DNA from: a virus | Taxonomy: Duplodnaviria; Heunggongvirae; Uroviricota; Caudoviricetes | Reading direction: 5' to 3' (one strand) | IMG/VR virus record: IMGVR_UViG_3300032220_000751 | Length of the DNA: 64,000 nt | Shown: one piece after another, positions 5,084-46,183 of the stretch | Layout of the letters: the number at the start of each line of letters is the position of its first letter | Position numbering within the stretch: position 1 is the first letter of the stretch | Notes under the pieces: generated by a model | Seen by the model: the letters and a program-made list of their open reading frames with translations, nothing else | Databases searched by the model: none | Told to the model about the DNA's origin: nothing | Translations under genes and position numbers: made by a program

Positions 5084-5386
5084 ATGGCGATCCAACAAGT
5101 GCTGTCACTGCGCATCCATTTCACTGACGAATTGTTCAATGTGGATGAAAGTAAGATTACCCGAGAGATGAAGGTCCATGAAACCGTCATCAATCTGACT
5201 AAACTCGATATGCGTCCAGAGGCCATCAGTACTGAGAATGATGGTGCATTGGAAGACATCTCTGATGAATTAGCAGATGAGATAGACGGCGTGATACAGG
5301 CCCGCTTCTTTGTAACGAACCCTCTGTACTTTACAGATGAATTCGAGTTGGGAACCGAATATCTGGGAGTGCATACTCTCCATTAA
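5084..5386 (+). CDS. Acidic hypothetical protein
   Basis: GAGGT RBS, 100 aa. Confidence 0.75.
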   Translation: MAIQQVLSLRIHFTDELFNVDESKITREMKVHETVINLTKLDMRPEAISTENDGALEDISDELADEIDGVIQARFFVTNPLYFTDEFELGTEYLGVHTLH

Positions 5387-5396
5387 TGGGAAACGA

Positions 5397-6767
5397 ATGG
5401 AACATTCGAATAAATTAGTAGTACTGTATCACCGCAATTGTGCCGATGGTTTTGCAGCTGCCTGGGTAGCTTTGCAAGCTGAAGCTGTCTCGCGTGGGAT
5501 TGATACAGTAGAAGAGTTGATGGTCCCCGGTAGTTCTGTGATTGCTACTCCTGTTGAATACGACATTCATCAAGAGGATTTAATTGAGATCTGCCGGGAT
5601 GCACGTGTTTACGTTGTTGATTACTGCTTTGCACCTAGCCAGACTACTCAGATCGCTAAGGTAGCTAAGTCTGTAGTGGTGTTAGATCACCATAAGACTG
5701 CTATCGAAAAGATGGCTGGTTATAAGCACCCCAACGTCAAGCTGTATTTCGATCAGTCTTATTCAGGTGCTGGCCTGGCATGGAAACACTTCTTCGGTGA
5801 CCAGAAGATTCCAACCCTGTTGACATACTTGCAGGATTACGATCTGTGGACTAAACAGTATCCACAGTCGATGCCATTGGTACGTGGTATGCAGCACATG
5901 CGCATTCACGATCGTCAGGATTGGCGTGCCTTCGACGTCTTGACTCGTAATGAGGATGCGATTGCTGAAGTCATCATGACTGGCCAGACTGCATTGGAAG
6001 TCGAGCAAAGCATCATTGATGATGCTATTCGTGAATCCATGGTCACCGGTGTGAAGATCAATGGCGTTGAAGGTGGCGTCTTACTGAATCTGCCTTACCG
6101 TATGTCCAATATGGTAGGTGACACGTTAAACGGTAAGACCGATGAAATCAAATTCACCTGCGTCTACGATTATGTCAATCCGGAACCCAGTTACCCAGCT
6201 GGTTATATCCGACTGTCCTTCCGTTCGAAACGCGGTAGTGATATCGATCTGACCAAGATGCTGAAGAAGTTTGGTGGTGGTGGTCATGAGTCTTCATCTG
6301 GTCTGAAGATCTGTCGTATGCAGTACTACACGATCGAAGACTTCCTGCGCTTGAATAAGGAAGAGAAGATTAGCAATCGAAAGCATATCGGTAATCTGAA
6401 AGAGTTCTACCAATACGTGACCGATCAGATCTACCTCTTCCAAGAATCGGTGGCGACTCTTTTGTCTGACGGTATTCCTTACCAGAAGACCGCTGCAGAT
6501 ATCGCCAAGATGTATCAGCAAAATGTCGGCGTTCTTGAAAGTATGATGATGTTCCATACCGACAAGAACTGGAGCAAGTACGAACCACAAGTCACTAAGT
6601 TGATTAATGCATTATCCGTAATTTATACCGTACACACTCACTTGTATGTTGGTGTAAATGCAGCCAAAGGGATGGTGCAAAAAGCATCTGATTACTTCAA
6701 GAGTGATGAGTTCGATGACCTCTTAAAGAAGTTCTGGGTGGATGTACGGACGTGGGATAGTCCGTAA
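5397..6767 (+). CDS. DHH/DHHA1-family phosphoesterase with C-terminal helical extension
   Basis: YHRNCADG, VVDY, VLDHHKT, SGAGLAW, QDYDLW, SFRS, FGGGGH motifs; start set at ATG 5397. Confidence 0.85.
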   Translation: MEHSNKLVVLYHRNCADGFAAAWVALQAEAVSRGIDTVEELMVPGSSVIATPVEYDIHQEDLIEICRDARVYVVDYCFAPSQTTQIAKVAKSVVVLDHHKTAIEKMAGYKHPNVKLYFDQSYSGAGLAWKHFFGDQKIPTLLTYLQDYDLWTKQYPQSMPLVRGMQHMRIHDRQDWRAFDVLTRNEDAIAEVIMTGQTALEVEQSIIDDAIRESMVTGVKINGVEGGVLLNLPYRMSNMVGDTLNGKTDEIKFTCVYDYVNPEPSYPAGYIRLSFRSKRGSDIDLTKMLKKFGGGGHESSSGLKICRMQYYTIEDFLRLNKEEKISNRKHIGNLKEFYQYVTDQIYLFQESVATLLSDGIPYQKTAADIAKMYQQNVGVLESMMMFHTDKNWSKYEPQVTKLINALSVIYTVHTHLYVGVNAAKGMVQKASDYFKSDEFDDLLKKFWVDVRTWDSP

Positions 6768-6792: not shown

Positions 6793-6858
6793 CATATCAC
6801 TAGAGTGTAGTAGGTAGAAGAAAAGAATCTTCATCCAGCTACACTCTAGTGATTTTTT
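6793..6858 (+). promoter_or_regulatory. Early-promoter motif embedded in a 15-bp terminator-like hairpin
   Basis: CATATCACTA 6793-6802; ATCACTAGAGTGTAG (6796-6810) / CTACACTCTAGTGAT (6839-6853) followed by T-tract. Confidence 0.65.
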
Positions 6859-6938
6859 ACTGGGGCTCTACATCGTGTAGAGAGTAGGATCTCTATCAAG
6901 TATCAATTTTAAACTTCATAATCAAAAGGATAAGAAAC

Positions 6939-7595
6939 ATGGCTGTGCAAGAAATCTCCATCAACCGGGCTCTGACTACTGTCAAGAACCTGAAGAAAGA
7001 AATCGAAGAATACTTCAACGAGCCGCGCATCTTCGTGATCGCTCTGCAAGGTACGGAAGACCGCGTGGTCGCACACGGCTTCGACAAAGCGTACATGGAA
7101 AAGCAGATGCAATCGGACTACGACAGCTACATCAACAAGCTGGCGCGTTACGATGCACTGAAGGCCGCGATCGTCAAGTCCAACGCTGAAACCAAGGTCT
7201 CCATCAACGGCCAAGAATACACGGTTGCCGCTGCTGTCGAACTGAAGGCCACGGTCAAGTTCAAGGAAACCCTGCTGACGCACTGGAAGAAGCAGATGGC
7301 TACGATCTCCAAGGTCGTCTCCGATGCCAATGCCAAGCTGGAATCCACGCTCAAGACCGACATCGACAACATCAACAAGTCCAGGACCGAAGCCGACGGC
7401 GACTCTGCCCAGGAATACATCGCCGCCCTGACTCGTCTGAACACCGAGCGCTACACGGTCAAGGTGCACGACTACCTGCAGCTGGCAACCAAGATCAAGG
7501 AACTGGAAAACGAGATCCGCACCATCAACGAAGAACTGGACTGGGCACTGTCCGATTCGAACATGAAGACCCTGATCTCTGTCGATCTGGGTTAA
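6939..7595 (+). CDS. DIP1984/DUF6847-like all-helical protein
   Basis: ALTTVKNLKKEI...LKAAIVKSNAETKVSINGQEYTVAAAV...LENEIRTINEELDWALSDSNMKTLISV pattern recalled for this family; codon bias as strong as the capsid gene. Confidence 0.55.
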   Translation: MAVQEISINRALTTVKNLKKEIEEYFNEPRIFVIALQGTEDRVVAHGFDKAYMEKQMQSDYDSYINKLARYDALKAAIVKSNAETKVSINGQEYTVAAAVELKATVKFKETLLTHWKKQMATISKVVSDANAKLESTLKTDIDNINKSRTEADGDSAQEYIAALTRLNTERYTVKVHDYLQLATKIKELENEIRTINEELDWALSDSNMKTLISVDLG

Positions 7596-7720
7596 GTCTC
7601 ATCGCTTGAAATAATCCCTGTGAATTGGTGTGCATGAAGTTAGCAAACCTTATTCACCTATACGGCCTGTAGGTAAAGTAATCTGGCCAACCAACCAACT
7701 ATCTTTTGCGAAGATACTTG

Positions 7721-7793
7721 GTTCCATTAGCTCACTTGGTAGAGCAACAGACCAATAATCTGTAGGTCGCCGGTTCGATTCCGGTATGGAACC
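7721..7793 (+). tRNA. Atypical tRNA-like gene, anticodon AAT (nominally Ile), probably degenerate
   Basis: Acceptor GTTCCAT/ATGGAAC, D stem GCTC/GAGC, anticodon stem ACAGA/TCTGT with loop CCAATAA, T arm GCCGG-TTCGATT-CCGGT; C33, C15 and no encoded CCA. Confidence 0.7.
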
Positions 7794-7815
7794 CCTATAC
7801 TAGCAGTAACCCCTC

Positions 7816-7900
7816 AAAGGTTAAAGCTTTAAAGGTCAAGTTTCAAAGATCTAAAGTTCATCTACCTTAAAGCTCAATGGTTAAAGCTTGTAGTTAAAAG
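7816..7900 (+). repeat. AAAG heptad-like repeat array
   Basis: AAAG at 7816, 7823, 7831, 7845, 7853, 7869, 7883, 7897 plus in-register variants (CAAG, AATG, GTAG); period 7-8 nt. Confidence 0.8.
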
Positions 7901-7958
7901 CTCTTGTAAGTCCACATCAAAAGCGCGTTCGAAAGAACTAGGTGAGAGTAAGCACCGA

Positions 7959-8122
7959 GCTACGCGTGTGGCAATGTACAGCGAGTCACAGGGACTCCGA
8001 ATTCGTAGTAGCAGTAAACGTGCCGTGTATCACGTCTGCCTATCGGCAATACATGTTGGACCTGGTCCTGCGTCTGGGCGGCCTATCGGCAACGCAACGG
8101 GTGAGATCGAAAGGTCTCACCC
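7959..8122 (+). ncRNA. Unassigned structured RNA with pseudoknot, 12-nt direct repeat and GNRA hairpin
   Basis: ACGTG/CACGT stem whose loop CGTGTAT (8024-30) pairs with ATACATG (8049-55); GCCTATCGGCAA at 8038-49 and 8081-92; GGGTGAGATC-GAAA-GGTCTCACCC 8099-8122. Confidence 0.45.
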
Positions 8123-8134
8123 AATCCCCATATA

Positions 8135-8712
8135 GCCAGGGTGGTGAAATCGGTAGACACAGCGGACTTATCGTCATGATTAATTCATGATATTGAGCAC
8201 CTTCGAAAAATGAGTCAGTAGTCTAGTGAGACAGCTAGAGCAGCAGCTGGGCGTAACGACTCAATCGAAAGACGTTGGTGAATCCTTTCAAATTCGGCGA
8301 ACACTAAACTTGAATGAATTGTGCCTGTCCGGGAACAGGGGAACAACACTTTAGTCCATTGTAATAGATGGTAAAGGTGCCAAGCGAAAGCATCCCAATT
8401 CAAGCATGTCAACGCCGAGCCAAGCCTAAACAAGAGATTACAGACTAAGACACTCTTGGGATTGTGATGTGTGCCGAAGTCGTGAATGTTTACGAGTTAG
8501 GATAGGCATAATCCATGGAAGGTGTAGAGACTATACGGAAGGGATCTAAGTTTGGCGTCACACTCCTATGTCGGGGGCTTCGTTCAAATATGATCAAGAC
8601 ATAGTCCAGACCACAAACAGCGTAAGCTGGTAGTGAAAACTATAGTGGTAAGAAAATCCGCCGCGTCAGTCTAATAAACGGCGTACGGGTTCGAGTCCCG
8701 TGCCTGGCACCA
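8135..8712 (+). tRNA. trnL: tRNA-Leu(UAA) split by a group I intron (exons 8135-8169 and 8653-8712)
   Basis: 5' exon GCCAGGGTGGTGAAATCGGTAGACACAGCGGACTT, 3' exon AAAATCCGC...ACGGGTTCGAGTCCCGTGCCTGGCACCA; spliced anticodon loop CTTAAAA, long variable arm, encoded CCA. Confidence 0.9.
8170..8652 (+). mobile_element. ORF-less group I intron (trnL-type core)
   Basis: P1 GACTTA/TGAGTC with U8169.G8212 wobble; P3 CCTTTC/GGAAGG; P4 TTCGGCG/CGCCGAG; P7 GACTAT/ATAGTC (R GTAGAGACTATA, S AAGACATAGTCC); terminal G8652. Confidence 0.9.
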
Positions 8713-8734
8713 TGAATTGCAGTAGTAAAAAACA

Positions 8735-8809
8735 AGTTACTCATGCAAGGTTCGAGTCCTTGAATGTTCTGAACTTTAATCGGTCAGAAATCCATTGAGA
8801 TGAGTAACT
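8735..8809 (+). ncRNA. tRNA-like RNA with T arm first (permuted, YrlA-like topology)
   Basis: 10-bp terminal stem AGTTACTCAT/ATGAGTAACT, T arm CAAGG-TTCGAGT-CCTTG, second stem AATG.TTCTGA/TCAGAA.CATT; no clear D arm. Confidence 0.5.
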
Positions 8810-8979
8810 AACCTAGTTAAACTTGCGGTGTATATCTAGGAAACATGCTCCTCTGAGTTAAGGGTGTTGTAATCGCTAGGTTGGGTTTAATTTTCATGTT
8901 TATACCAATCGGTAATTACGAAACCGCCTGTTTTTTAACCGGTTTACTTTATTAGTGCACGCGCAACGTATCTACTCCA

Positions 8980-9250
8980 TGGATGTAAATAGATGGAGTT
9001 GGAGAAATTGCCTGGTAGTTTACAGCGAGGTTAGGTCTCAAGGAGGTAGATTCTTCCTGAGTACCTTGACATGAGGCACTAGATGAGCAGGGTCGACTTC
9101 TCCACGGAAGTTCCCTCTCGTGGGAATCTGTCATTAGACGTGCTGAACTAATAGAGTGAACTGTCATTGTGATGCTTACGGGGACATCGGTAAAAACCCC
9201 TGCAATTACCAAGTGAGGCTCGCATGAAGTAATTAGACCCGAAACATCCA
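8980..9250 (+). ncRNA. Unassigned structured RNA with hammerhead-like junction elements
   Basis: TGGATGT(A)/GAAACATCCA, GGGTC 9090-94/GACCC 9236-40 abutting GAAA; core strand noncanonical. Confidence 0.3.
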
Positions 9251-9329
9251 AACCAAACAGTTGTAGTTTTAACCATTTTTCTATTCTAGTCAAATAGTAA
9301 ACGTGGATACGTAAGAGCGAACGGGTACA

Positions 9330-9414
9330 GATCAATTAGCCGGACCGTCAATCCGGAGAGTCCTAATTGATCAACAAGGGGGAGGGTGATCCACTAACGC
9401 CGCTTCATCCTCCC
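9330..9414 (+). ncRNA. Two strong hairpins 5' of the hammerhead
   Basis: GATCAATTAG/CTAATTGATC (9330-39/9363-72) and GGGAGGGTGA/TCATCCTCCC (9380-89/9405-14). Confidence 0.45.
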
Positions 9415-9423
9415 ACTTCTAAA

Positions 9424-9499
9424 CATTACTGACGAGCCGTTCAAGTCGGCATCAATGGGTGAAAGGCCCACGAAATCACAGTAGCATCGTGATCTAATG
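9424..9499 (+). ncRNA. Type I hammerhead ribozyme with branched stem II
   Basis: Stem I CATTA/TAATG, CTGACGA 9429-35, G9436-C9471, GAAA 9472-75, stem III ATCAC/GTGAT, cleavage triplet AUC ending at 9494. Confidence 0.65.
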
Positions 9500-10063
9500 A
9501 AGGGTAAAGTCTTACCCTCTACTGACTGCGCTTAGGCGTGGAGGTCGGTGAAGTTCTTGGAGGAGCCGCGAGGACACTATTCGTGACTGGATAGTGAACT
9601 ACCCGGTAGCTTGCCAAGAATGGCTACGCGCGCTTTGAATTTAAGCCCTCTCTGATCAATTGGGTTTAATCCTCAGACCGCGAAGTTGTAAGCGAAAGAA
9701 TCCTTACTTAAGGGCCAACCGAAAGGAAGCCGCGATGGGTAGGAAACATGGAAGAGTCTCCTTACGGGAGGTGGCCCCTAAAGTAGTACCATGTTGTGGA
9801 ACGTGGTGTTACCGATTTTCTCTAAGCCTTGAGTGGCAAGTGCCATGAGGTAAAGCTTCCATGTTTTTGATTCTAGTAGTAAGCAGCCTATAGTTTGTCA
9901 TCGCTTGCGTTTTTCGATTGACGCGGGATCACGCCTCAGATGGGCAAGTGTTGGTTGAAGCACCTACCACTTGCTCATTTGCGGCCTGGCTACTCCCTGC
10001 TGGCATGTCTCGGTCTAGTCAACTGAGTCGTCCTAGTATAGTGACTGGATGGTAAACTATGGG
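9500..10063 (+). ncRNA. Large unassigned multi-domain structured RNA
   Basis: TTCTTGG/CCAAGAA 9554-9620; 11-bp 9744-54/9856-66; 16-bp 9887-9902/10048-63; 13-bp 9938-50/9968-80; no credible ORF. Confidence 0.55.
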
Positions 10064-10085
10064 ATGTTTATTTAATGCATATTAA

Positions 10086-10121
10086 CCACATGGGGCTAGT
10101 CCTCATGTGGGTTTTATGCCC
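10086..10121 (+). terminator. Terminator closing the RNA island
   Basis: CCACATG/CATGTGG stem then GTTTTATGCCC. Confidence 0.65.
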
Positions 10122-10150
10122 TTAGTTTTCTTTTTGTTAATAAAGGAAGT

Positions 10151-10573
10151 GTGATGGATAAGTCTAAGTTTCCTGATAACTTCGATTTGTTTACTACGAT
10201 TGGGACGGTACGTCATCCTCCCCAAAGTCGTACCTCAGTGCTGGTATATGGGTTAAATCGTGACATTAATGATGGGATAAAACTTATTGAATCCTTGGAT
10301 AGTAATGACATGGTTGCCAAAATCTTTAATGACAATGGCGCTTTAATCTGGGAAGTAACCTATAGCGATAAAGTGATCGACTGGGCTGTAGAGACGTTGA
10401 TTCACTTGAGGGTGGTTCTGGTCAGGTCGCAGAAGTACATTGATACTGCATTCCCAGTTCGTGAGCAAGTACTCATGGATATAGTGGACTTCTTAAGCCT
10501 GGTGGCGTTCCGACGCAAATTCAGTGTGGAGATCCACATCTGTAAACAAAGGAAGAATGATGTACGAGAATAA
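10151..10573 (+). CDS. Hypothetical protein
   Basis: AAGGA RBS, 140 aa. Confidence 0.7.
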   Translation: MMDKSKFPDNFDLFTTIGTVRHPPQSRTSVLVYGLNRDINDGIKLIESLDSNDMVAKIFNDNGALIWEVTYSDKVIDWAVETLIHLRVVLVRSQKYIDTAFPVREQVLMDIVDFLSLVAFRRKFSVEIHICKQRKNDVRE

Positions 10574-43939: not shown

Positions 43940-46183
43940 ATGTCGAAATCCGCAATTCAACTGAAACAAGGCAAGAACGCTGGTGCTGGTTCGAGCCGTC
44001 AATTTCAATCGGTTAGCGAGACCGCCTTCAATGAAATGAAGTCCCACCTGATTCGCTCGGGTACTGGCTTCGAACAAGGTGATGCACGCAAGACCATCAC
44101 CCTGGAAGGCATGGGCGAAACTGACTTCGTCCGCGTCAACAACGCTCTGGATGGCCTGAGCACCGCCCTGGGCACCATCGCTCAAGAAGCCTACACTCTG
44201 GGTCAACGCGTGGATGCCGAAGGCAAGCCCATCGAATCCAAGCACACCCAAGCTCAAGTCGACGCTGCTGCTCTGGCTCTGGCCTATGCATCGGACCCGG
44301 CTTCCTTCTTCAAGACCGCTGGCCGTCGCGCCGTGTCGATGGAAGAAGGCGAAGTCATGATGAAGTCGCCCATTCAGTCGCTGCCGCGTCTGAAGGAATC
44401 GATGGAAGCGTACGACGAGAAGGAAAACCGCAATGCGGCTCTGTACTCGGCTACCTTCAACATGATGGCCGCTCACCAAGACGAATTCGGCGAAGCTTTC
44501 TTCCCGACCGTCGTGGTTCCTGTCGACCAAGCTGGCTACACCATCGCTACCCGTATCACCCGCGTGATCAACGACATCCGTCGCGATCCCAATGGCGATC
44601 CGCAAAGCCTGAACGCCAAGAACATCGTCCAAGCTGTGATCGATGCCTCGATCCTGCGTAACGACATCACCATGCTGTACCCGGTGGTTCGTGACGACAG
44701 CGCCAAGTACTTCGTGGACGCTGGCGACGTGGCTCCGTACAACGTGGAACTGGACGGCAACCCGCTGCTGACCGCTCCGCTGAAGATGGGCGTTGAGTTC
44801 AGCCTGCTGAACATCTCGCAATCGGAAATCGAACTCGCCAAGGGCGTGCAAGATATCACCGACTCCGTCGATCCGGCCATGTACCTGAAGGCTCTGTACA
44901 TCAAGCTGGGTACCGGCAACAGCGCTGAAGTCATCAAGATCCTGACTCAAGATCTGCCGCTGTCCGCTTTCAACTACTCGGTCCAAGACAACTACCGCGA
45001 CGTGGTGCTGAACTTCAAGTCCAAGCGCCTGACCGTGAACTCGAAGACCAAGAAGGCCGACGGTACTGACTCGACCCTGCTGGCTCCGCTGGCTACTGGT
45101 GAACTGAACGTTCGTCTGGGTCTGCGTGTCAACGGTGACTTCAACACCCAAACCGGTAACGGTACTCTGTCGGCCACTCCGGTGACCGTGCAACTGGTGA
45201 CCAAGGCTGGCCAATCCCTGGCTCTGGACGCTGGTGAAGGCAAGACCGCTGCTGACATCTTCGCTGGCGCAACCGTCATCGGCTACGATCTGGACGCTCG
45301 TCGTACCAACAGCAACCTGCGTAACCGTGGTCAACTGCTGGATAACACCTGGCAGTACCAGACCTACCCGCTGCCCATCGGCGCACCGATCTCGATCCTG
45401 CACCCGATGAGCCAAAGCGATGCCAACGATGCAGCTGAACTGTCCTCGCTGATCACCGCCGCTCGTATCACCACCTCGAACCACGCTGTGACTGCACTGC
45501 TGCGCGCACGTGACGCCCTGGCTTCGTTCGTCGTGAATGACGATGGTTTCGATGACAACGAAAACAAGCCGCAGATCTTCGGCGCTGCTTCGCTGTTCGT
45601 CAAGCCGCACTTCAAGCAAGTTCCGTTCGACGCTGAAAAGGTCGTCGACTCGCTGAAGTCGCAAGAGCGTGCACGTGACGTGCAAGAAGCTCTGGTGAAC
45701 GTGCTGCGTTCGGAAATCTACCAAGCGTATCGTGACTCCGGCTACAAGGCCGCTGCTGATGCTCGTGCCGGTGGCCCTGCCCCGACCCCGACCGTCATCA
45801 TCGGTACTGACCCGGTGATCGCTCGCTGGCTGATGGTTACCGGTGACCTGCGTCTGATCGGTCCTGACTTCAATGTCAAGGTCGTGTCGACTCTGGACAC
45901 CCGCATGAAGGGCAAGATCTTCATGTCGTTCGGTAACTTCGACGGCACCAACCAAGGCGTGCCTGACTTCCTGCACTTCGGTAACATGGGCTGGCGTCCG
46001 GAGTTGGTCCTGACCCTGCCGATCAGCCGTAACAACCAGATCTCCAAGGAACTGGTTGTGCAGCCGTCGTTCCTGCACGTGCCGAACCTGCCGATCCTGA
46101 TCCAGGTCGATGTCACCAACATCGAAACTGTGGTTGAGAACAAGGTCTCGGTCAACACCGTGGACGTCACCCCGGCTCCGTAA
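43940..46183 (+). CDS. Major capsid protein (phiKZ gp120-like)
   Basis: 747 aa, extreme codon bias, SMEA cleavage-type motif before YDEKENR, QDEFGEAFFPTVV and C-terminal HVPNLPIL patterns, synteny. Confidence 0.85.
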   Translation: MSKSAIQLKQGKNAGAGSSRQFQSVSETAFNEMKSHLIRSGTGFEQGDARKTITLEGMGETDFVRVNNALDGLSTALGTIAQEAYTLGQRVDAEGKPIESKHTQAQVDAAALALAYASDPASFFKTAGRRAVSMEEGEVMMKSPIQSLPRLKESMEAYDEKENRNAALYSATFNMMAAHQDEFGEAFFPTVVVPVDQAGYTIATRITRVINDIRRDPNGDPQSLNAKNIVQAVIDASILRNDITMLYPVVRDDSAKYFVDAGDVAPYNVELDGNPLLTAPLKMGVEFSLLNISQSEIELAKGVQDITDSVDPAMYLKALYIKLGTGNSAEVIKILTQDLPLSAFNYSVQDNYRDVVLNFKSKRLTVNSKTKKADGTDSTLLAPLATGELNVRLGLRVNGDFNTQTGNGTLSATPVTVQLVTKAGQSLALDAGEGKTAADIFAGATVIGYDLDARRTNSNLRNRGQLLDNTWQYQTYPLPIGAPISILHPMSQSDANDAAELSSLITAARITTSNHAVTALLRARDALASFVVNDDGFDDNENKPQIFGAASLFVKPHFKQVPFDAEKVVDSLKSQERARDVQEALVNVLRSEIYQAYRDSGYKAAADARAGGPAPTPTVIIGTDPVIARWLMVTGDLRLIGPDFNVKVVSTLDTRMKGKIFMSFGNFDGTNQGVPDFLHFGNMGWRPELVLTLPISRNNQISKELVVQPSFLHVPNLPILIQVDVTNIETVVENKVSVNTVDVTPAP

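What the first reader, a model, noticed from the sequence alone, without database searches (positions are those of the whole stretch)
6939..7958. DIP1984-like helical protein followed by a 7-nt-period AAAG repeat RNA: candidate oligomer-RNA complex
Seen: AAAG (or near variants) recurs every 7-8 nt from 7816 to 7900, about 11 units, inside an RNA closed by long-range helices (7625-31/7952-58; 7653-60/7939-46). It lies right after the stop of a codon-biased helical protein. By analogy with TRAP, which binds spaced (G/U)AG repeats with one repeat per subunit, evenly spaced single-stranded repeats suggest binding by a homo-oligomeric ring. My recollection is that homologous genes elsewhere are also followed by AAAG-rich tracts, which would make this a conserved, uncharacterised protein-ncRNA module. 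That recollection is unverified.
Basis: partly seen in the sequence, partly recalled or inferred. Interest (0 to 1): 0.85.

Follow-up and report, generated by a model that had tools for sequence, protein, structure and literature searches.

The report
Conserved phage heptad-repeat RNA with partner gene
Right after a very highly expressed gene of unknown function, this jumbo phage encodes a roughly 380-base folded RNA whose middle is a string of seven-base AAAG units; the same gene-plus-RNA pair is present, unannotated, in hundreds of large phages including the classic phage T5, so it looks like an undescribed RNA-protein module.

Summary
The AAAG array is real: 8 exact AAAG in 90 nt against 0.48 expected, the only such cluster in 64 kb. 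The upstream gene (218 aa, phrog_1491, wrongly labelled "tail fiber") has homologues in over 700 phage genomes and about 3,500 protein clusters. In essentially every locus examined it is followed, on the same strand, by a 290-370 nt non-coding RNA.

That RNA has:
- a covarying closing helix (303 of 304 pairs kept; 55 G-U against 1 A-C);
- two further long-range helices, a hairpin and a pseudoknot;
- conserved junctions (CGAAA, GATAAAATCC, GGCTG);
- a central array of TYAAAGN heptads, with spacings of 7, 14 and 21 nt.

It matches no Rfam family and is unannotated in 440 T5-like records.

The window's copy is divergent. Two covariance models of the family's 3' domain do not detect it, and a tRNA-Ile lies inside it.

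The protein is DIP1984-like at fold level only.

The parts
6939..7595 (+). Gene for a 218-aa, mostly helical protein (phrog_1491; 'tail fiber' label doubtful); the conserved partner gene of the RNA
   Evidence: PHROG E 7.3e-42. 711 phage records by tblastn. 3,566 clusters at E<=1e-3. AF2 pLDDT 90.3. Highest codon bias in the window.
7615..7994 (+). Whole structured non-coding RNA (about 380 nt, about 305 nt without the embedded tRNA)
   Evidence: MFE -116.4 kcal/mol, z -4.7. With the tRNA deleted, z is -2.8. No ORF. Same position and strand as the family RNA in 70+ homologous loci.
7615..7635 (+). P1, 5' strand of the closing helix (9+3+7 bp with two single-base interruptions)
   Evidence: Pairs with 7974-7994; pairing probability 0.97. 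The closing helix is the family's best-supported feature.
7974..7994 (+). P1, 3' strand of the closing helix
7636..7648 (+). 5' junction GAAG-TTAGC-AAAC, the counterpart of the family's CGAAA-P2a-GAAC (closest to the rV5-like form CGAAG-TTGG-AAAC)
   Evidence: Read by eye. Not statistically tested.
7649..7660 (+). 5' strand of a long-range helix to 7939-7952.
   Evidence: p 0.57-0.71. Family pseudoknot with at least 15 distinct complementary pairs.
7700..7716 (+). Hairpin TATCTT-TTGCG-AAGATA just before the tRNA. My1 and GAP31 have a similar hairpin just before their arrays.
7721..7795 (+). tRNA-Ile (anticodon AAU) embedded in the variable domain of the RNA
   Evidence: ARAGORN. Rfam RF00005, 62.7 bits. 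tRNA or T-arm modules lie at the same place in L039, L040, L049, L065 and L032.
7816..7900 (+). Heptad array: 8 exact AAAG plus degenerate units, unit TYAAAGN; two further AAAG at 7920 and 7932
   Evidence: window. Family spacing peaks at 7, 14 and 21. The AA of each unit is strongly constrained.
7912..7916 (+). Candidate P3 5' strand (CCACA, followed by tcAAAAG as in the family), pairing with 7967-7971 (TGTGG)
   Evidence: Threaded by hand on the family model. p is only 0.06-0.26. The threading rules pass in 8% of controls, so this is a proposal only.
7938..7959 (+). Candidate P4 hairpin (CTAGGTG / CACCGAG, loop AGAGTAAG). It competes with the long-range helix 7649-60/7939-52.
   Evidence: p 0.17-0.33. 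Hand-threaded.

Best explanation
SHOWN. The region 6939-7994 is one copy, and a divergent one, of a two-part module that is widespread in large virulent tRNA-carrying phages: T5-like, rV5-like, Bastille/SPO1-like, lactococcal 949-like, Clostridioides, Vibrio, Pseudomonas and jumbo phages.

Part 1 is a small, mildly acidic, very highly expressed helical protein (phrog_1491, DIP1984/DUF6847-like fold).

Part 2, directly downstream on the same strand, is a structured RNA of about 300 nt. Its compact core has a closing helix P1, long-range helices P2 and P3, a hairpin P4, a pseudoknot from the P4 loop to the 5' junction, and an H-type pseudoknot. The core holds out a largely unpaired loop made of seven-base units (TYAAAGN, 7-12 units in about half of the members). 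In many phages a tRNA gene starts 3-10 nt after the RNA, so RNase P probably makes its 3' end. In this window a tRNA-Ile lies inside the RNA.

INFERRED (about 45% likely). The RNA and the protein work as one ribonucleoprotein. Many copies of the abundant protein bind the RNA periodically, one contact per heptad on the invariant AA dinucleotide, with the folded core as the nucleating or capping handle. This gives a ring- or filament-like particle. Its cellular target is unknown; the constant tie to tRNA clusters points to tRNA or translation biology.

The existence of the conserved gene-RNA module I rate at about 0.9. That the window's RNA is a true homologue, not a look-alike, I rate at about 0.8. 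The confidence value given for this explanation (0.45) is for the inferred ribonucleoprotein mechanism.
For: Array in the window.

Homologous gene followed by a non-coding gap of about 390-500 nt holding AAAG heptads:
- GAP31, My1 and Y1-MI;
- T5-like ev219 and BF23;
- Bcp1, AM11 and LIBA2945;
- 68 IMG/VR loci.

A covariance model of the 3' domain hits 58 of 71 loci. All hits are on the gene's strand and downstream of it, with no other hit in 255 kb. 54 of 60 non-redundant loci hit.

Covariation:
- P1: 303/304 pairs with 4-6 pair types per position; non-cognate partners give 3.7 of 8.
- P1: G-U 55 against A-C 1, so the RNA is read from the + strand.
- P3 was found independently by RNAalifold, with 0 broken pairs.
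- P3+P4: 89.5% paired against 64.4% in shuffles (0/500) and at most 49% when slid.
- P2: cognate run 7.1 against 4.7.
- Pseudoknot pairs.

Heptad phase: spacings of 7 (32 times), 14 (32 times) and 21 (12 times). Chains of 5 or more units occur in 22/42 RNAs against a maximum of 4 in shuffles.

Per-position mismatch in related pairs: A1 0.025, A2 0.037, N 0.46, background 0.195.

Codon bias is the highest in the window, above the major head protein.

The module is kept together although the proteins are only 25-35% identical and the neighbouring genes differ.
Against: There is no direct evidence of binding or oligomerisation.
- The protein is mildly acidic (median pI 5.9) and has no known RNA-binding fold.
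- The protein's invariant residues (K75, S81, N82, N208 and others) are the same in members whose arrays are not AAAG (L008, L010, L016, L072). Specific reading of AAAG by those residues is therefore doubtful; they may contact the invariant core instead.
- Heptad number varies widely, and the array is degenerate in about a third of members.
- Synteny could reflect co-transcription from a strong promoter, not physical association.

For the window itself:
- two covariance models fail to find the 3' domain;
- the junction motifs are altered (GAAG, GTAAGTCC, GGCA);
- my hand-threading of P2-P4 is no better than chance by my own control.
Confidence: 0.45

Rival explanations
1. The RNA acts on its own, and the gene is only its transcriptional neighbour. 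The strongly expressed upstream gene supplies the promoter for an RNA-plus-tRNA transcript. After processing, the RNA works as a decoy or sponge for a universal host factor that recognises A-rich single strands. Candidates are ribosomal protein S1 or the 30S subunit, or the U-rich anticodon loop of tRNA-Lys(UUU): UUAAAG is complementary to loop positions 33-38. That would, for instance, shield tRNA-Lys from anticodon nucleases.
For: - The array is unpaired, A-rich and multivalent.
- The module sits in or beside tRNA clusters, and tRNAs often start 3-10 nt after the RNA.
- tRNA or T-arm modules are embedded in several members.
- AAAG heptads are kept in phages of both Gram-negative and Gram-positive hosts, which calls for a universal or phage-encoded partner.
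- The protein is acidic with no RNA-binding fold.
Against: - The gene-RNA linkage is essentially invariant across phage families that share little else. That is more than promoter sharing needs.
- In My1-like phages a terminator-like hairpin separates the gene from the RNA.
- An RNase E decoy in particular is unlikely, because Gram-positive hosts lack RNase E.
- The tRNA-Lys idea rests on complementarity reasoned from textbook anticodon-loop sequence. It was not tested.
Confidence: 0.27
2. The RNA is a cis-acting 3'-UTR or processing element. It stabilises or autoregulates the mRNA of the upstream gene, or it organises RNase P/RNase E processing of the downstream or embedded tRNAs. In this reading it is not a trans-acting RNA.
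For: - It begins 0-150 nt after the stop codon (20 nt here) and often abuts a tRNA.
- The gene needs very high expression.
Against: - A pseudoknotted core of about 300 nt with four covarying helices and a phased repeat is far more than a 3' stabiliser or a processing signal needs.
- Many members have no tRNA within 1.5 kb.
- The embedded tRNA here would cut the RNA away from the mRNA.
Confidence: 0.1
3. The heptads are a DNA element: an iteron- or centromere-like array for a DNA-binding protein, as with the 7-bp heptads bound by ribbon-helix-helix proteins such as omega of pSM19035, or an origin.
For: Contiguous 7-bp direct repeats are a known DNA-binding format (established knowledge, not tested here). 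One Acinetobacter phage record labels a tRNA-Ile region 'putative replication origin'.
Against: - The array is always on the coding strand of the gene and always embedded between helices that covary as RNA, with 55 G-U pairs against 1 A-C.
- CTTT is not enriched on the other strand.
- Only the AA of each unit is constrained.
Confidence: 0.04
4. The window's RNA is not homologous to the family RNA. It would be an unrelated RNA, part of the phage's 2.5-kb RNA/tRNA island, that acquired an AAAG array independently or by recombination of the array alone.
For: - Covariance models R1 and R2 give no hit in the window.
- The junction motifs are not conserved.
- The threading test is not discriminating.
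- The 16 contigs carrying this locus are identical, so there is no covariation of its own.
Against: - It has the same gene, strand, distance, length (about 305 nt without the tRNA) and order of parts: closing helix, junction, variable domain, heptad array, 3' domain.
- R1 also scores undoubted members poorly: T5-like 21 bits, L022 26 bits, L005 missed.
Confidence: 0.2

Closest known systems
TRAP with the trp leader (11 (G/U)AG repeats) and HutP with its (UAG-N4)x3 sites in Bacillus
   Same: Short purine triplets or tetramers repeat at a fixed short period in unpaired RNA. HutP's period is also 7 nt. Only 2-3 bases per unit are constrained. The proteins need not be basic.
   Different: TRAP and HutP are beta-rich ring proteins. 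They act in cis on leader RNAs to control attenuation. Here the protein is helical. The RNA is a stand-alone, pseudoknotted molecule of about 300 nt downstream of the gene. The number of units is not fixed. No binding has been shown.
VIPR systems of phages: Vipr RAMP protein plus vrRNA with YNNGG repeats (bioRxiv 10.64898/2026.04.26.720920 and 10.64898/2026.04.26.720927)
   Same: Both are phage-encoded. Both have a non-coding RNA made of 9-16 very short tandem units, capped by a conserved, pseudoknotted handle, next to the gene of the protein. In VIPR that protein polymerises along the repeats, one protomer per unit.
   Different: - The period is 5, not 7, and the motif is GGY/NN, not TYAAAGN.
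- The Vipr protein is a RAMP (RRM fold), whereas this one is a helical bundle.
- The VIPR variable bases are hypervariable guides. Here the array evolves no faster than the genome: 304 of 440 T5-like copies are at least 95% identical, and only one free base per unit is available.
CsrB/RsmZ-type sponge RNAs
   Same: They carry many copies of a short motif displayed in unpaired segments of a dedicated non-coding RNA, which titrate a protein.
   Different: The motif there is GGA in hairpin loops, with no strict phase and no conserved tertiary core. Those RNAs are host-encoded and titrate CsrA. Here the partner is unknown.
GOLLD and ROOL large ornate RNAs of phages and prophages (Rfam)
   Same: They are large, covarying, pseudoknotted RNAs of unknown function, encoded by phages, often beside tRNA genes.
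   Different: There is no sequence or structure match (Rfam scans). GOLLD and ROOL are 580-800 nt, form RNA-only cages, have no heptad array and no dedicated partner gene.
DIP1984 family (NF038048; PDB 3kdq), DUF6847 (PF20935) and 'septicolysin'-named proteins
   Same: This is the best structural match of the protein. 3kdq: VIA Z 10.0, 151/152 residues aligned; Foldseek probability 1.0, E 8.5e-3. Further support: an AFDB cluster named Septicolysin and Atlas clusters with DUF6847 at TM 0.56-0.69.
   Different: No HMM-level membership. The phage protein is about 60 residues longer. The function of DIP1984 itself is unknown, so the match explains nothing mechanistically.

Membership tests
phrog_1491 protein family | Full-length match to the family profile | tested here: met
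   E 7.3e-42, residues 4-216 on profile positions 3-210 of 211. The profile of 48 relatives finds 3,566 clusters.
DIP1984 family (NF038048) / DUF6847 (PF20935) | HMM score above the curated cut-off | tested here: not met
   No hit for the window protein at E<=1 (NCBIfam) or E<=0.1 (Pfam). Only 1 of 48 relatives hits each model, at E 0.006 and 0.0032.
DIP1984 family (NF038048) / DUF6847 (PF20935) | Same fold as the solved member 3kdq | tested here: inconclusive
   3kdq is the top hit in both searches: Foldseek E 8.5e-3, TM 0.43/0.58; VIA Z 10.0, rmsd 5.0, 151/152 aligned. Z below about 13 is not decisive for helical bundles.
Unnamed phage heptad-repeat RNA family (defined here) | Lies directly downstream of a phrog_1491 gene on the same strand, about 290-370 nt, no ORF | tested here: met
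   Starts 20 nt after the stop. About 305 nt without the tRNA.
Unnamed phage heptad-repeat RNA family (defined here) | Central array of TYAAAGN heptads in phase | tested here: met
   8 exact AAAG with spacings 7, 8, 14, 8, 16, 14, 14. The family histogram peaks at 7, 14 and 21.
Unnamed phage heptad-repeat RNA family (defined here) | Long closing helix P1 joining the two ends | tested here: met
   19 bp, 7615-35/7974-94, p 0.97.
Unnamed phage heptad-repeat RNA family (defined here) | Conserved junction motifs CGAAA, GATAAAATCC and GGCTG flanking P1-P3 | tested here: not met
   The window has GAAG, GTAAGTCC and GGCA at the corresponding places.
Unnamed phage heptad-repeat RNA family (defined here) | Significant match to the covariance model of the 3' domain (P3+P4) | tested here: not met
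   R1 and the iterated R2 give no match at E<=10 with filters off. Caveat: clear members such as the T5-like copy score only 21 bits.
Rfam families (all 4,227) | Match at the gathering score, or any match at E<=5 in 7500-10400 | tested here: not met
   Only the tRNA, and a sub-threshold group I intron elsewhere, were found. Nothing is found in the corresponding regions of GAP31, My1 or Y1-MI.
TRAP / trp-leader type | (G/U)AG triplets spaced by 2-3 nt, bound by an 11-mer beta-sandwich ring | tested here: not met
   The period is 7, the motif is AAAG, and the protein is helical.
VIPR (Vipr RAMP + vrRNA) | RAMP/RRM-fold protein; YNNGG period-5 repeats with hypervariable NN | tested here: not met
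   The fold is a helical bundle. The period is 7. The arrays are not hypervariable among T5-like phages.
Type III toxin-antitoxin (ToxIN-like) | Tandem 34-36-nt RNA repeats upstream of an endoribonuclease toxin gene | tested here: not met
   The repeat is 7 nt and lies downstream of the gene. Not scanned against PADLOC.
tRNA (RF00005), for the embedded unit 7721-7795 | Cloverleaf match above the gathering score | tested here: met
   62.7 bits against a gathering score of 29. ARAGORN calls tRNA-Ile(AAU).

The most novel reading that the evidence does not exclude
Large virulent phages, T5 included, make a previously unrecognised ribonucleoprotein. An abundant DIP1984-fold protein polymerises along a seven-base-period RNA track, one protomer per heptad reading the invariant AA. 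The track is held out by a pseudoknotted core that is born next to, or around, tRNAs. This would be a third, independent invention of 'short-period repeat RNA plus protein polymer', after CRISPR Cas7 backbones and VIPR. Its likely role would be in tRNA or translation warfare with the host, for example shielding tRNA-Lys, whose anticodon loop is complementary to UUAAAG.
Probability: 0.3. Interest if true: 0.9.

Novelty: categorically new. Interest (0 to 1): 0.8.

Why it matters
If the module is what it appears to be, a textbook phage (T5) and hundreds of therapeutic-candidate phages (rV5-like, T5-like, Bastille-like) carry a conserved structured RNA of about 300 nt. With it goes a dedicated, very highly expressed protein that nobody has annotated or studied.

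The RNA has the hallmarks of a functional ornate RNA: four covarying helices, two pseudoknots and invariant junctions. It also has a feature with almost no precedent, a phased heptad track in which only two bases per unit are constrained.

The system is directly testable in E. coli with T5 or BF23 by Northern blot, pull-down, deletion and cryo-EM. It may reveal a new way in which phages handle tRNAs, translation or host defences.

It would also correct the 'tail fiber protein' label that has spread through RefSeq for this family.

Tried and rejected
1. DNA similarity search of 6800-8200 against phage records found only the tRNA.
2. The search for related loci with the single protein found nothing. 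It worked only with an alignment.
3. Rfam at permissive thresholds gave no family for the RNA.
4. Covariance models R1 and R2 of the family's 3' domain gave no hit in the window.
5. I wrote a rule-based test of my hand-threaded P1-P4/pseudoknot architecture. It passes in 8% of shuffles and 8% of natural 415-nt windows, and in only 23/41 true members. It does not discriminate, so I do not use it as support.
6. Other contigs carrying the identical protein (16 were read) are identical in the RNA, so there is no micro-covariation.
7. RNase E decoy idea (the heptad fits the RN|WUU rule from the literature): rejected as a general explanation, because the module with AAAG heptads also occurs in phages of Bacillus and Clostridioides.
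8. VIPR-like programmable guide: not supported. The arrays are not hypervariable and only one base per unit is free.
9. Ring of fixed stoichiometry: not favoured, because heptad counts vary.
10. Sequence-level link to solved structures: none.
11. Literature searches (DIP1984; T5 non-coding or stable RNA; phage structured RNAs; AAAG) found no description of this RNA. The 2023 catalogue of 10,006 viral candidate RNAs (PMC10690425) may contain fragments of it; I could not check this.
12. PAK_P3 sRNA1 and sRNA2 (PMC4933390) are about 100 nt and do not obviously correspond.
13. The look-up of sequencing runs and complex prediction were closed, so there is no expression or oligomer test.
Full report
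**Setting.** The window is part of a 310-kb jumbo phage genome with direct terminal repeats. It carries a phiKZ-type 747-aa major head protein at 43940-46183. The finding lies at the left edge of a 2.5-kb stretch (7596-10150) without credible ORFs.

**The observation**
- AAAG starts at 7816, 7823, 7831, 7845, 7853, 7869, 7883 and 7897, and again at 7920 and 7932. Eight copies in 90 nt compare with 0.48 expected.
- No other 90-nt stretch of the 64 kb has even six copies. The complementary CTTT never exceeds four.
- The ORF 6939-7595 (218 aa) is real and has the strongest codon bias of the 65 ORFs of 150 aa or more. NNC over NNC+NNT is 0.92 against a median of 0.56, and CTG makes up 95% of Leu codons. 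That exceeds the major head protein, which argues for a very abundant product.
- A tRNA-Ile(AAU) at 7721-7795 (62.7 bits) lies between the 5' part of the non-coding region and the array. This finding's text does not mention it, although a sister note does.

- In the partition function of 7606-8003, helix 7625-31/7952-58 has probability 0.00.
- The RNA is closed instead by 7615-7635 pairing with 7974-7994: 9+3+7 bp, p = 0.97.
- The second helix, 7653-60/7939-46, is part of a 12-bp helix 7649-60/7939-52, with p 0.57-0.71.
- The whole RNA folds better than shuffles: z -4.7, or -2.8 with the tRNA removed.

**The protein**
- It matches phrog_1491 (E 7e-42). That PHROG, and many RefSeq records, call it 'tail fiber protein'. 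In T5-like and rV5-like phages the gene sits in the early tRNA region, so the label is doubtful.
- tblastn finds it in 711 phage records. These include T5-like, rV5-like, Erwinia and Salmonella jumbo phages, and Bacillus, Brevibacillus, Clostridioides, Lactococcus, Vibrio and Pseudomonas phages.
- A profile of 48 relatives finds 3,566 clusters at 50% identity, nearly all 200-217 aa.
- Neither Pfam nor NCBIfam recognises the window protein. One of 48 relatives touches DUF6847 (E 0.003) and one touches DIP1984_fam (E 0.006).
- The AF2 model (pLDDT 90.3) is a helical bundle with a small sheet made of the N-terminal strand, a hairpin and the C-terminal strand.
- Its best solved match in two independent searches is 3kdq, an unknown-function protein of Corynebacterium diphtheriae, which I take to be DIP1984. 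Foldseek gives E 8.5e-3 and VIA gives Z 10.0 with 151/152 residues aligned. AFDB and Atlas add 'Septicolysin' and DUF6847 clusters. 'DIP1984-like' is therefore fair at fold level only.
- The family is mildly acidic, with a median pI of 5.9.
- The invariant residues cluster in two SNAxT motifs at helix-to-strand turns, plus K75, K103 and D201.

**The recollection is right**
- In GAP31, My1 and Y1-MI the homologue is followed by a gap of about 390 nt that holds AAAG units on the same strand.
- I fetched 68 IMG/VR loci, plus T5-like, Bacillus, Lactococcus and Clostridioides phages. All have the gap.

**The family RNA.** Reading the sequences side by side gave a common architecture. From 5' to 3' it runs:
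1. P1a (11-22 nt), CGAAA, P2a, GAAC;
2. the 5' strand of a pseudoknot;
3. an H-type pseudoknot around GGGTTA;
4. a variable domain;
5. the heptad array;
6. GATAAAATC, P3a, atAAAG;
7. the P4 hairpin, whose loop pairs back to the segment after GAAC;
8. P2b, TTGTA, P3b, GCTG, P1b.

**Tests of the family structure**
- The eight P1 pairs next to CGAAA and GCTG are kept in 303 of 304 cases, with 4-6 pair types per position. Non-cognate strands give 3.7 of 8.
- G-U pairs outnumber A-C by 55 to 1, so selection acts on the + strand RNA.
- RNAalifold found P3 on its own, with no broken pair in 38 sequences.
- P3+P4 are 89.5% paired, against 64.4% in shuffles (0/500) and at most 49% when slid.
- P2's cognate run is 7.1 against 4.7.
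- The P4-loop pseudoknot shows at least 15 different complementary pairs at the same place.
- A covariance model of the 3' domain (R1) hits 58 of 71 loci. All hits are on the gene's strand, all downstream of the gene, and nothing else matches in 255 kb of both strands. It also finds the RNA in Bcp1, AM11, LIBA2945 and a T5-like phage.
- The loci it misses carry recognisable variants.
- Rfam has nothing at these places.
- In 440 T5-like records the region is unannotated, apart from a few spurious ORFs and a predicted promoter.

**The array**
- Across 42 non-redundant RNAs, distances between successive AAAG peak sharply at 7 (32 cases), 14 (32) and 21 (12).
- The unit is T-Y-A-A-A-G-N.
- Chains of five or more in-phase units occur in 22 of 42 RNAs, against a maximum of four in shuffles. 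The span ranges from 1 to 12 slots.
- About a third of members have degenerate arrays or other purine motifs: AGCA in L010, AGG in L072, TTAGRA in L025.
- In related pairs the first two A's almost never change (mismatch 0.025 and 0.037). The background is 0.195 and the free position N is 0.46.
- That is the signature of a periodic contact on two bases per seven.

**Link to tRNAs.** In many loci a tRNA starts 3-10 nt after P1b, for example in L009, L017, L047, L048 and L064. RNase P would then create the RNA's 3' end. T-arm or tRNA-like modules are embedded in the variable domain of L039, L040, L049, L065 and L032, and in the window.

**Is the window's RNA a member?**

For:
- the same gene, strand and distance;
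- the same length once the tRNA is removed;
- the same heptad array;
- a strong closing helix;
- a junction (GAAG-TTAGC-AAAC) close to the rV5-like form;
- a long-range helix where the family has its P4-loop pseudoknot.

Against:
- R1 and an iterated model R2 find nothing, even in a 5-kb search with filters off;
- the three signature motifs are altered;
- my hand-threading of P2, P3 and P4 has low pairing probabilities;
- a rule-based version of that threading passes in 8% of random controls.

R1 is weak on undoubted members: T5-like scores 21 bits, L022 scores 26 and L005 is missed. Its silence is therefore not decisive. I put homology at about 0.8. All other contigs carrying this locus are identical, so the copy offers no covariation of its own.

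**Mechanism**

Shown: a conserved, co-oriented, tightly linked pair made of an abundant protein and a structured RNA with a phased single-stranded track.

Inferred: that the two bind each other.

In favour:
- linkage that survives across phage families sharing almost nothing else;
- the periodic constraint;
- conservation of AAAG in phages of both Gram-negative and Gram-positive hosts, which needs a phage-encoded or universal partner.

Against:
- an acidic protein of unknown fold class;
- invariant protein residues that do not track array variants;
- a variable number of units.

I give the RNP reading about 45%, a host-factor sponge or tRNA-directed RNA about 27%, a cis element about 10% and a DNA element about 4%.

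The nearest logic in print is VIPR: phage YNNGG-repeat RNAs with a pseudoknotted tail, coated by a RAMP filament (bioRxiv 10.64898/2026.04.26.720920 and 10.64898/2026.04.26.720927). An earlier scan note pointed me to it. This module fails every defining feature of VIPR. TRAP and HutP are the older analogies, and HutP shares the 7-nt period.

**Limits.** There is therefore no evidence of transcription, of RNA ends or of oligomerisation.

Noticed in passing
window 8134-8712: tRNA-Leu(UAA) split after U34 by an ORF-less group I intron of about 485 nt. Rfam RF00028 gives 39 bits, E 9e-8, below the gathering score of 50. The exons read GCCAGGGTGGTGAAATCGGTAGACACAGCGGACTT / AAAATCCGC...CCA. ARAGORN does not call it.
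   Followed up: partly
window 7596-10150: A 2.5-kb stretch with no credible ORF, in a genome otherwise packed with genes. The heptad RNA is only its first element. A motif like TAGTAGCAGTAA recurs at about 7800, 8006, 8714 and 9870, at boundaries between RNA units.
   Followed up: no
window 43940-46183 and 6939-7595: The 218-aa gene is more codon-biased than the major head protein (phrog_3231, E 2.5e-184). These are the two most biased ORFs of the window.
   Followed up: yes
L039:2130-2455, L040, L049:2147-2489, L065:1990-2298, L032 (about 100-130 nt after the stop): Other family members carry T-arm-like hairpins (GGTTCGAnTCC), in L049 apparently in permuted order (T arm before D arm). They sit at the same place in the variable domain where the window has a whole tRNA.
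   Followed up: partly
L009:2524, L017:2502, L047:2447, L048:2503, L064:2454, L063:2448, L070:2442: A tRNA gene starts 3-10 nt after the 3' strand of the RNA's closing helix. This implies that RNase P defines the RNA's 3' end.
   Followed up: partly
L006:2522-2612 and L047:3197-3283: ARAGORN calls tRNAs with the anticodon CUA (amber suppressor type, labelled tRNA-Pyl) in two uncultured phages, just downstream of the module.
   Followed up: no
RefSeq records such as NC_019400, NC_018837 and NC_134263: The 'tail fiber protein' name for this family is propagated widely. It has no visible support: the gene lies in the early tRNA region, and the protein is a helical bundle of about 210 aa.
   Followed up: partly
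window 5337-6767: The gene upstream of the module is a DHH/DHHA1 phosphoesterase (phrog_4771, E 3.5e-55), a class that acts on nucleic-acid ends or nanoRNAs. It is not conserved next to the module in other phages.
   Followed up: no
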